Positions 3,001 through 6,000 of a DNA stretch of 64,000 bases are shown here, in pieces. A program made the position numbers. The stretch lies in the NCBI RefSeq assembly GCF_988243305.1, contig NZ_OZ547136.1. One strand, 5' to 3'. Positions within the stretch are counted from its first letter, which is position 1; each line of letters begins with the position of its first letter.

Positions 3001-6000
3001 GTATCTACCTTAACTTAATGATTTTTACCAAAATCATTAGGGGATTCATCAGCCCGCAGCAACTACAGAACGGTAAATAACATTACCCGGGGGAAGCATC
3101 CGGAGGCGAAACAATGAAACTGGCCCTGACGCTGGAAGCCGACAGCATTAACGTGCAGGCACTGAACATGGGGCGCATTGTCGTTGACGTCGATGGTGTT
3201 AATCTCGCTGAACTGTTTAATAAAGTCGCGGAAAATGGTTATTCACTCCGCGTGGTGGATGAGCGTGTCACTACCGAAACACCGGCGACCTCTGCCAGCC
3301 CTCATCAGTTGCCGGAAGACAATACAGTGATACAGAGCGTAATGCCATTAGCCACAGAAACGGCGCTGGATATTCTGATTGTGTGGCTGCAGGACAATAT
3401 CGACTGCGAATCGGGGATTATCTTCGACAACGATGAGGATAAAACGGATTCGGCAGCACTGTTGCCCTGCATTGAACAGGCCAGGGAAGATATCCATACC
3501 CTGCGCCAACTACAGCTTCTGCACCAGAACCGGTAAATATTACTCACCATACTTCATTCCACTGACGCCAGCCTGAACAGGGCTGGCGTTTTCATTTATC
3601 TGCAAAAAGGAAAAACGATTATGTCTGAAATCACAGTCTCCCGTCCGGAAGTGGTCAACGGACATACGGACGTTATCTGCTCAACCTCAGTCAGCCACAT
3701 TCTGGCTGTACGAAAGAGTACACTGTTGCAAATCGACATACTTATCCGGCAACTGGCTGAAATCTCAGCAATGACAGAAAGTATTGGCGGTAAAACCGCA
3801 CTGGACTGGGCCATGAAACAGGATTTTCGCTGCGGCTGCTGGCTCATGGAGAAACCTGAAACGGCAATGAAAGCCATTACCCGCAACCTTGACCGTGAAA
3901 TCTGGCGTGACCTGATGCAACGCTCCGGGATGCTGTCATTAATGGATGCGCAGACCCGTGATACATGGTACCGGTCACTGGAGTACGATAATTTTCCGGA
4001 AATCAGTGAAGCGAACATTATGAGCACATTTGAACAACTGCACCAGAATAAGGATGAGGTGTTTGAGCGGGGAGTGATTAACGTCTTCAGGGGACTGAGC
4101 TGGAATTATAAAACCAACTCTCCCTGTAAATTTGGCAGTAAAATTATCGTCAACAATCTGGTGAGATGGGGCCGGTGGGGATTTCATCTTATCACCGGAC
4201 CACAGACTGACCGGGTTGCCGACCTGGAAAGGATGCTGCATCTCTTCAGTGGCATCCCCACTCCCGACAACCGGGAAAATATCATAATTCGTCTGGATGA
4301 GCATATCCGGTCTGTTCAGGGTAAAGAGTACTATGAAGACGAAATGTTTATCATTAAATACTTTAAGAAGGGATCTGCACACATCACTTTCAAAAGGCTG
4401 GAACTGATTGACAGAATTAACGATATAATAGTCAGGCACTTTCCTTCTGTGCTCTCAGCCTGATCCCGAGTGTGATTCCCTTTCGATATCAAAAGGGACT
4501 GCGGGTATAATTGAGGGTACATTTTTAATCAAACCAAACAAATCAGATTAATATCAATATGATAAAAGAAATTTTCGATTCCGAGTCCGGCACCACTAAT
4601 TCTTAAGAACCCGCCCACAAGGCGGGTTTTTGCTTTTGGATCTGACAATAACCTTCACGAAAAAACTTAGCTTATAAGGTCTGGGGGAATTACTCTCGCC
4701 ACGTTAACGAGAGTAATTTTATTGATATTAATCTCCTGATACTTTACCCCCGTCCAAACTCCAGCCGCTGCACATTCACCATCCCAGGCTTCTCAGCAGC
4801 ACTGACATCAATTTGTGTCACCCGCAGCGCATATTTTTCATCCAGTGCGTTTAACCATTTCAGAAGGTCATTAAACACCACAGGTTCTATCCAGACCTGA
4901 ATATTCTCCCCACGCTCGGCTATCCGCTTGATGACCACCGAGTGCGCGGAAGCACTGTCACTGATGACCCGCGATACCTGCGCAGGCGTTGTTGTGGCAG
5001 ATTTTCGCGCTGCAATAATATCCGGCGCGGCGCTCTTCAGTCGGGTGTTCATTGCCACCAGCTGCTGCAACATCGTCTCCTGTTGTTCTATCCGTTCGCT
5101 CAACGGCTGCCAGATGAGGACGTAATATCCGGCGCTAAACAGGAACACCGCCGCTGCCAGTAACATGCCTTTTTCACGCGGAGAACGCCCCGCCAGGTGT
5201 TGTGTCAGCCAGTGTTCGCCACGGCTTAACTGGCGTTCACGCCATTGCTGAAAATAGTGAATAAATTTATCGCGTAACATGTTATTTCCTCCGCAACGTT
5301 ACGCCGCCGGAAACCGCATCACCCTCTTTCTGTAACGCGTCCTGTTGCACAACATAATCTGCCGCCAGTGCGCTACGCAGTTTGTCGAAGCTGGCAAAGT
5401 TTGCAGCCCGTAGCTGAAGGTGAAGCGTCTGGCGTTTTTGATCAAAGGTGAAACCACGCATTTCGATGTCGGTAAGTGACGCTGATTTCAGGGTACTGGC
5501 GATCGCTGACAATTCTGCGAGCAGCCGGGTATCGTCGGCCTGCGGGCGATATTTTTTCAGCGCCATCGTCACCTGGGAACGCAAATTCACAATCCGCTTC
5601 TGCTCCGGGAACAGTGTTAAGAACTTTTTTTCCGCCTGGGTGCGGCTTTGCGCCACCTGTTCGCTGACGCTCCATAACGTCACGCCCCGTTCCACTACCA
5701 GCGCAACCAGAATCAGCAATATCGGCAGAATCATCACCCGCCAGCGCGCCCACTGTTTTCGGTAGCTGACACGAGGCTGCCACGGCCCTGTTAGCAGGTT
5801 CCCTTCCGGTTCGCCATAAGTGGTAATGGCTGGCAGAGCCGTAACGGTCAGGCGTTCGGCGTCCGCACCAGCCCATGCAGATAGTTCTTCCGGTGCAATG
5901 CCGACCACGGTTAGCGAAAGCGGTAAATTCTGCTCATTGAGCTGTGCACGGAACATGACCGGAGCCAGCGCCCGCCCGGCGCTCCATCCCCGGCATTCAT

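What the first reader, a model, noticed from the sequence alone, without database searches (positions are those of the whole stretch)
3114..4463. Two island cargo genes of unknown function between Tn10 and the att repeat
Seen in sequence: a 140-aa acidic protein with its own terminator and a 280-aa protein with a separate ribosome-binding site, both on the plus strand, with no recognisable catalytic motifs. Established knowledge: tRNA-integrated CP4-like islands often end with small conserved genes near toxin-antitoxin loci. Inference: they may belong to such families (YeeW-like and DUF4942-like, from memory) and could be part of a conflict or defence module whose partners lie further left.
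Basis: inference. Interest (0 to 1): 0.4.

Follow-up and report, generated by a model that had tools for sequence, protein, structure and literature searches.

The report
YeeW-like and DUF4942 island-end genes
The two genes are real, widely conserved backbone genes at the far end of a tRNA-Phe genomic island, related to genes that enter first when plasmids conjugate; their biochemistry is still unknown, and these copies are ordinary and already in public databases.

Summary
Both ORFs exist as described. ORF1 (3114-3536, 140 aa, pI 4.2) is a YeeW-type DUF5983 N-domain fused in frame to a DUF957 module. It lacks the DUF5983 C-domain found in the canonical allele. ORF2 (3621-4463, 280 aa) is a full-length DUF4942 protein.

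They are not cargo. They are the last genes of the conserved CP4-like module DUF905-DUF932-antirestriction-RadC-DUF987-CbeA-CbtA-YeeW/DUF957-DUF4942, which ends at the pheV attachment repeat (4574). The expected toxin partner is immediately to the left. Only the last 20 codons of cbtA survive (3055-3117), cut by the outside end of Tn10's IS10-right (3052). ORF1's ATG overlaps the cbtA stop.

DUF4942 relatives sit on 4,293 plasmids, 92% of them conjugative, in the leading region next to oriT. In phages the same module is fused to a gamma-type N6-adenine DNA methyltransferase domain. ORF2 itself has no methyltransferase motifs, no defence-system match and no solved structural relative.

Best reading: these are leading-region-type establishment or anti-restriction genes of a mobilisable island. 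The identification is firm; the mechanism is inferred. Identical or near-identical copies occur in more than 1,000 E. coli genomes. Already known, low-to-moderate interest.

The parts
1..414 (+). Tn10 tetD (codons 2-138 plus stop), cut by the window start
   Evidence: The translation matches TetD as I recall it. The gene lies directly against the IS10 inside end. Plasmids carrying ISVsa5/IS10 share this stretch.
411..3052 (-). IS10-right of Tn10. The inside end is at 411 and the outside end at 3052. The transposase ORF runs 2945..1728 and has a corrupted C-terminus.
   Evidence: Exact inside-end repeat at 411-432. The outside-end sequence AAAATCATTAGGGGATTCATCAG ends at 3052.
579..1889 (+). 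IS3-family element (IS629/IS1203-like) inserted inside IS10-right, flanked by a CTG duplication
   Evidence: orfA 633..959 and orfB 956..1846. The terminal repeats and the flanking CTG can be read. Annotated 'IS3-like element IS1203 family' in matching records.
3055..3117 (+). 3' remnant of the toxin gene cbtA (last 20 codons plus stop). The stop overlaps the ORF1 start (ATGA).
   Evidence: The translation RSNYRTVNNITRGKHPEAKQ* is identical to the C-terminus of intact CbtA in L001. Homology to uninterrupted islands starts at window 3053.
3114..3536 (+). ORF1, 140 aa, acidic. DUF5983 (YeeW) N-domain at residues 4-57, linker at 58-76, DUF957 module at 77-140.
3342..3536 (+). DUF957 module within ORF1. 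It could also be made on its own from Met77, as NCBI annotates it.
   Evidence: PGAP annotates the identical stretch as a 64-aa DUF957 protein. Stand-alone homologues of 80-103 aa exist. dN/dS is 0.21 in this frame.
3564..3600 (+). Conserved intrinsic-terminator-like hairpin and T-tract between ORF1 and ORF2
   Evidence: It is conserved in 8 loci, and the substitutions give G.U wobbles on the + strand only.
3621..4463 (+). [not shown]
4464..4573 (.). AT-rich island tail (33% GC) with an 11+11-nt palindrome at 4477-4498. It is conserved at pheV and pheU island ends.
4574..4597 (+). att repeat: 3' end of tRNA-Phe (pheV). The native pheV terminator follows at 4604-4632.
   Evidence: Genomes with an empty site match from window 4574 onward under 'tRNA-Phe'. 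Terminator. No intact tRNA anywhere in the window.

Best explanation
Shown.
- The two ORFs are the distal genes of the conserved backbone module of a CP4-like genomic island in pheV: DUF905, DUF932, KlcA/ArdB-type antirestriction, RadC/JAB, DUF987, CbeA, CbtA, YeeW/DUF957, DUF4942.
- ORF1 is a common allele. In it the YeeW N-domain, which always abuts cbtA, is fused in frame to the small acidic DUF957 module, and the DUF5983 C-domain is absent.
- Natively ORF1 is translationally coupled to cbtA (ATGA overlap). Here Tn10 has cut cbtA 20 codons before its end.
- ORF2 is a stand-alone DUF4942 protein with no methyltransferase motifs. The same roughly 270-aa module is fused in phages and metagenomic elements to a gamma-type N6-adenine DNA methyltransferase catalytic domain (FxTP, EPSAGxG, NPPF) with only about 80 residues after motif IV.
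- On conjugative plasmids the stand-alone form lies in the leading region, often as the gene closest to oriT.

Inferred.
- The module is the island's equivalent of a plasmid leading region.
- ORF2 is a non-catalytic accessory protein of the DNA-methylation/anti-restriction sphere. It acts on incoming element DNA, or on the enzymes that modify or restrict it, during establishment in a new host.
- ORF2 is made at a low level by read-through of the conserved terminator.
- ORF1 is an accessory partner of the CbtA/CbeA module. The fusion allele suggests that its two halves work together.
- In this strain both genes are cut off from their native promoter. They can be transcribed only by read-out from IS10 (pOUT; established knowledge, not tested here) or from an unrecognised internal promoter.
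For: Family identity: Pfam E = 1.3e-28 and 9.4e-64.

Module and order:
- L001 and L002 annotation.
- Seven further loci at different chromosomal sites.

ORF1 allele structure:
- About 275 nt encoding DUF5983_C are absent, and the N-domain and DUF957 are in frame.
- More than 35 cluster representatives are 137-140 aa long.
- dN/dS is 0.27 overall.

Distribution of the ORF1 halves:
- The N-domain is tied to cbtA: it occurs on only 34 plasmids, in nearly all of which cbtA is annotated under the match.
- DUF957 is independent of cbtA: about 1,300 large conjugative plasmids carry it, and a homologue with 43% identity was checked on an IncHI2 plasmid.

cbtA truncation.

DUF4942 breadth and context:
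- 1,968 clusters at 50% identity.
- 4,293 plasmids, 3,957 of them conjugative.
- Leading-region position in IncI and IncL/M plasmids.
- Samuel & Burstein 2024 (PMC11541004), Supplementary Table 1: family 24, DUF4942, 2,171 members, FDR p = 0, median position 1 from oriT; family 76, DUF4942; family 72, DUF5983, median position 2.

Methyltransferase fusions.

ORF2 fold: a confident AlphaFold model (pLDDT 87) with no solved relative.

Terminator.

Related proposal: a 2026 preprint (10.64898/2026.01.13.699239) proposes that many E. coli islands, including the TAI islands, are oriT-only hitchers with anti-defence genes near oriT.
Against: - No experiment on any DUF4942, DUF957 or DUF5983 protein was found in the searchable literature.
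- No oriT was identified in the window. The island tail shows no similarity to the oriT-proximal DNA of the plasmids examined.
- ORF2 is not basic (pI 6.7). Its motifs are strongly conserved across the family. That fits neither a generic DNA binder nor a variable target-recognition domain.
- Stand-alone DUF4942 genes are not consistently next to a methyltransferase.
- In pESBL not all leading-region genes are induced on entry.
- The ORF1 structure prediction failed (pLDDT 36).
- As I recall, yeeW in E. coli K-12 is a truncated pseudogene although CbtA/CbeA still function there. That argues against an essential role for ORF1 in the toxin-antitoxin pair.
Confidence: 0.55

Rival explanations
1. 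ORF1, and possibly ORF2, is a third, regulatory or co-antitoxin component of the CbtA/CbeA type IV toxin-antitoxin operon. Its role would be confined to toxin control and unrelated to DNA entry.
For: The ORF1 ATG overlaps the cbtA stop in every locus examined. The DUF5983 N-domain essentially never occurs away from cbtA. A machine-learning survey lists DUF5983 as the downstream 'partner' of CbtA (PMC10790755).
Against: DUF957 and DUF4942 occur on thousands of plasmids without cbtA. A conserved terminator separates ORF2 from the operon. The pair works as a two-gene system in K-12, where, as I recall, yeeW is a pseudogene. No interaction data exist.
Confidence: 0.25
2. ORF2 is the DNA-recognition partner of a methyltransferase supplied in trans, so that together they methylate the incoming element. 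It would be a true subunit of an orphan methyltransferase rather than a methylation-independent factor.
For: Repeated fusion to a compact gamma-type N6A catalytic domain with only about 80 residues after motif IV. Methyltransferase genes lie within a few kb in some contexts: L003, L004, and the ParB-type gene of the kind I take to be the ParB-methyltransferase in IncI.
Against: No methyltransferase is annotated in the island module or within 9 kb in pOXA-48. DUF4942 is too uniformly conserved for a specificity domain.
Confidence: 0.15
3. The genes are an anti-phage or other defence module carried as island cargo.
For: The genes are adjacent to a toxin-antitoxin pair. Islands of this type often carry defence genes (general knowledge; also 10.64898/2026.01.13.699239).
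Against: No PADLOC match even at E <= 1. The genes belong to the invariant backbone, not the variable cargo. Relatives are enriched where plasmids keep anti-defence genes rather than defence genes.
Confidence: 0.05
4. In this particular strain the two genes are silent relics. Tn10 separated them from their promoter and destroyed their toxin partner, so they do nothing here.
For: cbtA is truncated at 3053 and more than 2.6 kb of IS DNA lies upstream. No promoter-like site was found on the + strand between 2850 and 3620.
Against: Both ORFs are intact, and ORF2 is identical to widespread alleles. By established knowledge IS10 pOUT reads outward across the outside end. The consensus scan is insensitive. 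This reading concerns expression in one strain and is compatible with any view of the proteins' function.
Confidence: 0.3

Closest known systems
YeeW / DUF5983 family (Aec77, L0008), the gene downstream of cbtA in CP4-44-type islands
   Same: The N-terminal 57 residues match Pfam DUF5983_N over the full model. The position is the same and the start overlaps the cbtA stop.
   Different: The DUF5983 C-terminal domain (PF19419), present in the 162-aa canonical protein, is absent. Instead the ORF continues in frame into DUF957.
DUF957 (Aec78, L0009); apparently the AntiFam entry ANF00264, which bioRxiv 10.64898/2026.06.09.728211 suggests is a false 'spurious' call
   Same: Residues 77-140 correspond to what PGAP names DUF957. 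They are 43% identical to the IncHI2 DUF957 protein. The preprint describes the same three gene layouts beside cbtA/cbeA.
   Different: Here it is the C-terminal half of a larger ORF rather than a separate 65-103-aa gene. The current Pfam copy has no model for it. I did not test the equivalence to ANF00264 directly.
[not shown]
   Same: Full-length similarity at 33-37% identity over residues 14-278. The length is the same, and the N-terminal helix and motifs are conserved. It is the last gene in its co-directional block at the end of the element.
   Different: It is chromosomal, at the attR end of an integrated island, and no oriT or relaxase is visible.
Phage DUF4942-N6A DNA methyltransferase fusions (e.g. 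Aeromonas phage vB_AsaM-56 gp39, Pseudomonas phage phiPSA1 'DNA restriction methylase', phrog_6263)
   Same: The DUF4942 module is shared, including the conserved D, H and N positions.
   Different: ORF2 stops where the linker and the FxTP/EPSAGxG/NPPF catalytic domain would begin. It cannot itself methylate.
CbtA/CbeA (YeeV/YeeU) type IV toxin-antitoxin system
   Same: Same operon context. The cbtA 3' end is present and overlaps ORF1.
   Different: The toxin gene is truncated, and no antitoxin gene lies in the window. Neither ORF matches the CbtA or CbeA families.

Membership tests
Pfam DUF4942 (PF13708) | Score above the curated gathering threshold over the whole model | tested here: met
   215 bits against a cut-off of 25. 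Residues 87-275 match model positions 1-189 of 190.
Pfam DUF4942 (PF13708) | Family-wide conserved positions, including the N-terminal helix that lies outside the Pfam model | tested here: met
   W95, P126, D201, H254, N267 and P275 are invariant, and S21 and R31 nearly so, in 55 sequences of 27-70% identity.
DUF5983 / YeeW | N-terminal domain PF25638 | tested here: met
   98.9 bits against a cut-off of 27. Residues 4-57 match model positions 1-56 of 56.
DUF5983 / YeeW | C-terminal domain PF19419 | tested here: not met
   No hit at E <= 0.1. The canonical 162-aa protein does have it. About 275 nt are absent in the DNA alignment.
DUF5983 / YeeW | Located immediately downstream of cbtA, overlapping it | tested here: met
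   ATGA overlap with the cbtA remnant. The same arrangement is seen in L001, L002 and L010-L017.
DUF957 | Sequence similarity to proteins named DUF957 | tested here: met
   The same stretch, at 99.9% DNA identity, is annotated DUF957 by PGAP. BLASTP E = 2e-15 to the IncHI2 DUF957 protein.
CbtA/CbeA type IV toxin-antitoxin system | Intact toxin gene | tested here: not met
   Only the last 20 codons remain.
CbtA/CbeA type IV toxin-antitoxin system | Antitoxin gene cbeA upstream | not testable with these tools
   The window begins inside Tn10. The DNA beyond the left end of Tn10 is not available.
N6-adenine DNA methyltransferase | SAM-binding motif I and catalytic (N/D)PP(Y/F/W) motif IV | tested here: not met
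   Both motifs are absent from the ORF2 sequence and no methyltransferase Pfam hit was found. They are present in the fused relatives.
Plasmid-type leading-region gene | Lies next to an oriT and is transcribed towards it | tested here: inconclusive
   True of the plasmid homologues (PMC11541004). No oriT was recognised in the island tail and there is no similarity to plasmid oriT regions. No oriT library was available.
Known anti-phage defence systems (PADLOC) | Match to any defence-system protein model | tested here: not met
   No hits for either protein at E <= 1.
CP4-like tRNA-integrated island | Direct repeat of the tRNA 3' end at the distal boundary | tested here: met
   The tRNA-Phe 3' end and its native flank begin at 4574. 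The island tail is conserved at pheV and pheU.
CP4-like tRNA-integrated island | P4-type integrase next to the intact tRNA | not testable with these tools
   No tRNA is found in the window. The proximal end lies to the left of the window.

The most novel reading that the evidence does not exclude
The terminal module of CP4-like islands would be a true conjugative leading region. An as yet unmapped oriT near attR would make the DUF4942 gene the first to enter a recipient. DUF4942 would be a methyltransferase-derived but catalysis-free factor that shields incoming DNA from restriction or otherwise promotes establishment. The YeeW_N-DUF957 fusion allele would reveal a physical partnership between a toxin-linked domain and a small acidic, possibly DNA-mimicking, leading-region protein. 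This would also settle that DUF957/ANF00264 is a real protein wrongly listed as spurious.
Probability: 0.25. Interest if true: 0.6.

Novelty: already known. Interest (0 to 1): 0.27.

Why it matters
These genes close one of the commonest island backbones in Enterobacteriaceae. DUF4942 is among the 25 largest gene families enriched in plasmid leading regions, with a median position right next to oriT, yet no one has assigned it a function.

If the establishment/anti-restriction reading is right, it would add a widespread new player to plasmid and island entry biology. It would also support the idea that classic pathogenicity islands spread as oriT-only hitchers.

For this window specifically, the practical value is annotation:
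- the genes are backbone, not cargo;
- the toxin partner is dead;
- the 140-aa ORF should not be split into a pseudogene plus a DUF957 gene without evidence.

Tried and rejected
- Defence-system membership: no PADLOC hits.
- NCBIfam: nothing for either protein.
- Sequence and profile searches of the PDB: nothing better than E about 0.07.
- Fold searches with the good ORF2 model:
  - Foldseek against the PDB: nothing at E < 0.1.
  - The viral library returned only family-like proteins, the best labelled 'Type I restriction enzyme'.
  - The AlphaFold-database library was unavailable.
- ORF1 structure prediction failed (pLDDT 36), so no structural inference was drawn for it.
- The idea that DUF4942 is a classical variable target-recognition domain was downgraded, because the family's motifs are too uniformly conserved.
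- An HNH-like reading of the conserved His254/Asn267 in a beta-beta-alpha element was considered from the secondary structure. It was dropped for lack of any supporting fold match.
- An oriT in the island tail was looked for by eye (no MOBP-type ATCCTG nick motif in 4464-4573; sequence printed) and by similarity to plasmid oriT-proximal DNA. Only chance hits were found.
- No complete E. coli genome holds the Tn10/cbtA junction, so the source strain was not identified.
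Full report
**Observation.**
- ORF1 is acidic (pI 4.24). It has a GGAGG 7 nt upstream of its ATG. It is followed by an 11-pair hairpin plus T-tract at 3564-3600.
- ORF2 has its own AAGGA about 9 nt upstream.
- They are real genes. Pfam gives DUF5983_N for ORF1 residues 4-57 (E = 1.3e-28) and DUF4942 for ORF2 residues 87-275 (E = 9.4e-64).
- Among four distinct 140-aa alleles with dS up to 0.47, ORF1 keeps its length and frame. Its dN/dS is 0.27 overall: 0.34 for the N-domain, 0.34 for the linker and 0.21 for the C-terminal part.
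- ORF2 has dN/dS of 0.13-0.22.

**Surroundings.**
- Window 1-414 encodes TetD residues 2-138.
- The IS10 inside end is at 411 and the outside end is at 3052. The left neighbour is therefore IS10-right of Tn10.
- IS10-right is itself split by an IS3-family element at 579-1889, flanked by a CTG duplication.
- Homology to uninterrupted islands begins at 3053.
- Positions 3055-3117 encode RSNYRTVNNITRGKHPEAKQ*, the last 20 residues of CbtA. The cbtA stop overlaps the ORF1 start (ATGA).
- On the right, the 33%-GC tail at 4464-4573 is conserved at pheV and pheU island ends.
- The tRNA-Phe 3' repeat and the native pheV flank start at 4574. They are followed by yghD/gspM.
- No intact tRNA is in the window, so the integrase end of the island lies to the left, beyond Tn10.

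**What ORF1 is.**
- In the canonical arrangement (E. coli UTAK-1, L002) the order is cbeA, cbtA, a 162-aa DUF5983 protein (N- and C-domains), a separate 65-aa DUF957 gene in another frame, then DUF4942 and yghD.
- The window allele lacks about 275 nt encoding the DUF5983 C-domain. It has a different linker that joins the N-domain in frame to DUF957.
- NCBI's pipeline annotates the identical sequence as a 'DUF5983 pseudogene, missing C-terminus' plus a 64-aa DUF957 gene.
- The fused form is nevertheless common. More than 35 cluster representatives are 137-140 aa long, and several clusters have hundreds of members.
- It always sits in the same module at several chromosomal sites.
- The two halves have different distributions:
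  - The N-domain occurs on only 34 plasmids, and in nearly all of them cbtA is annotated under the match.
  - DUF957 has stand-alone homologues on about 1,300 large conjugative plasmids; the IncHI2 homologue I checked is 43% identical.
- A 2026 preprint (10.64898/2026.06.09.728211) reports the AntiFam entry ANF00264 beside DUF5983/cbtA/cbeA in the same three layouts. It argues that this entry is a real protein, not a spurious one. The selection and homology data here agree, if ANF00264 is DUF957. I did not test that equivalence directly.
- Structure prediction of ORF1 failed (pLDDT 36).

**What ORF2 is.**
- DUF4942 is a large family: 1,968 clusters at 50% identity reach E <= 0.001.
- Most members are stand-alone proteins of 255-300 aa, aligned over essentially the whole of ORF2. 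The alignment includes an N-terminal helix outside the Pfam model. W95, P126, D201, H254, N267 and P275 are invariant.
- The AlphaFold model is confident (pLDDT 87, pTM 0.79). It has no solved relative:
  - Foldseek against the PDB: nothing at E < 0.1.
  - A profile search of the PDB found nothing.
- A minority of relatives, and most phage relatives, carry the module at the N-terminus of proteins of 460-545 aa. The C-terminal part of these proteins has the FxTP, EPSAGxG and NPPF motifs of gamma-type N6-adenine DNA methyltransferases. Only about 80 residues follow motif IV, which I read as too little for a recognition domain.
- ORF2 has none of these motifs.

**Context of relatives.**
- tblastn finds DUF4942 on 4,293 of 72,556 plasmids, 3,957 of them conjugative.
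- In an IncI plasmid it is the last gene of the co-directional block ssb - DUF905 - ParB-type gene - psiB - psiA - ardA. Only mobC lies between it and nikA, and from what I recall of IncI plasmids oriT lies just upstream of nikA.
- In pOXA-48 (IncL/M) it lies among JAB/RadC, antirestriction and ssb genes upstream of the relaxase.
- Samuel & Burstein (Nature 2024, PMC11541004), Supplementary Table 1, list the following as leading-region-enriched and oriented for T-strand transcription:
  - DUF4942 as family 24: 2,171 members, FDR p = 0, median position 1 from oriT.
  - DUF4942 as family 76.
  - DUF5983 as family 72: 618 members, median position 2.
- DUF905, DUF945 (the YubP/YafZ family) and KlcA antirestriction are in the same table, and a RadC/JAB gene lies in the pOXA-48 leading region. 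In my loci the island's YafZ-type gene is called DUF932 by Pfam.
- The island module is therefore largely a chromosomal copy of a leading-region gene set, with all genes co-directional and DUF4942 last before attR.
- A 2026 preprint proposes that many E. coli islands, including the tellurite (TAI) islands, are oriT-only hitchers with anti-defence genes near oriT.
- I could not find an oriT here.

**Mechanism.**
- The identity and genomic role above are shown.
- The function is inferred. ORF2 most likely acts without catalysis on incoming element DNA, or on modification/restriction enzymes, during establishment. It is expressed at a low level by read-through of the conserved terminator. That terminator's substitutions preserve pairing through G.U wobbles on the + strand only.
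- ORF1 is most likely an accessory of the CbtA/CbeA module. The in-frame fusion is a Rosetta-stone hint that the YeeW N-domain and DUF957 cooperate.
- In this strain the toxin is dead and the native promoter is displaced. Expression would then depend on IS10 pOUT read-out (established knowledge, not tested).
- Points against:
  - no experimental data anywhere;
  - ORF2 is not basic;
  - it is too conserved for a specificity domain;
  - it has no consistent methyltransferase neighbour;
  - not all leading-region genes are induced on entry in pESBL.

**Verdict.**
- 'Cargo' and 'defence' are not supported.
- The sequences are near-identical to alleles in more than 1,000 complete E. coli genomes. 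An identical ORF2 is already in the protein collection.
- The finding is already known at the family level, with function still open. Interest is low to moderate.

Noticed in passing
window 411-3052 (IS3-family insert at 579-1889): IS10-right of Tn10 is itself interrupted by an IS629/IS1203-like IS3-family element with a 3-bp CTG duplication. This replaces the C-terminus of the IS10 transposase. As I recall, IS10-right supplies the functional transposase, so this Tn10 is probably immobile.
   Followed up: partly
window 3053-3117: Tn10 inserted inside cbtA and left only its last 20 codons. The 5' part of cbtA and cbeA, if still present, lie beyond the left end of Tn10, outside the window.
   Followed up: partly
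window 3564-3600; also L001, L002, L010-L017: The terminator hairpin between DUF957 and DUF4942 is conserved in all alleles. Substitutions in L002 and L013 give U.G/G.U wobbles that keep the helix only in the + strand RNA. That suggests a functional attenuator just 20-30 nt upstream of the DUF4942 start.
   Followed up: partly
window 4477-4498: A near-perfect 11+11-nt palindrome with no spacer (TCCCTTTCGAT/ATCAAAAGGGA) lies 14 nt after the ORF2 stop. It is conserved at pheV and pheU island ends. It could be a protein-binding site (integrase/excisionase arm, regulator, or relaxosome).
   Followed up: partly
window 4462-4471 and 4577-4586: A 10-nt near-repeat of part of the tRNA-Phe 3' end (GATCCCGAGT / GATTCCGAGT) overlaps the ORF2 stop codon. 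It may be a degenerate second att copy or chance.
   Followed up: no
window 4483-4511: The only sigma-70-like site in the region (TCGATA-17-TATAAT, 10 of 12 matches) lies in the island tail and points outwards towards the att repeat. The count is within chance expectation.
   Followed up: no
window 3342-3536; L009 6995-7306: DUF957 has no model in the current Pfam copy, and a preprint says the matching AntiFam entry flags it as spurious. Yet it shows dN/dS of 0.21 and has homologues with 43% identity on about 1,300 large, mostly conjugative plasmids (the one checked is IncHI2), next to a DUF3085 gene.
   Followed up: yes
window 4744-9450, minus strand: A type II secretion operon (gspM/yghD, gspL, K, J, I, H, G) starts right after the pheV flank, as in E. 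coli strains that carry the yghJ-linked T2SS. No complete E. coli genome in the collection has the Tn10/cbtA junction, so the source may be a Shigella or an unsampled E. coli.
   Followed up: no
L003 (metagenome contig, IncP-like): A DUF4942 gene follows korA-incC-korB and is followed two genes later by a C5 DNA methylase and a second korA. This is a central-control-region context different from the enterobacterial leading regions.
   Followed up: no
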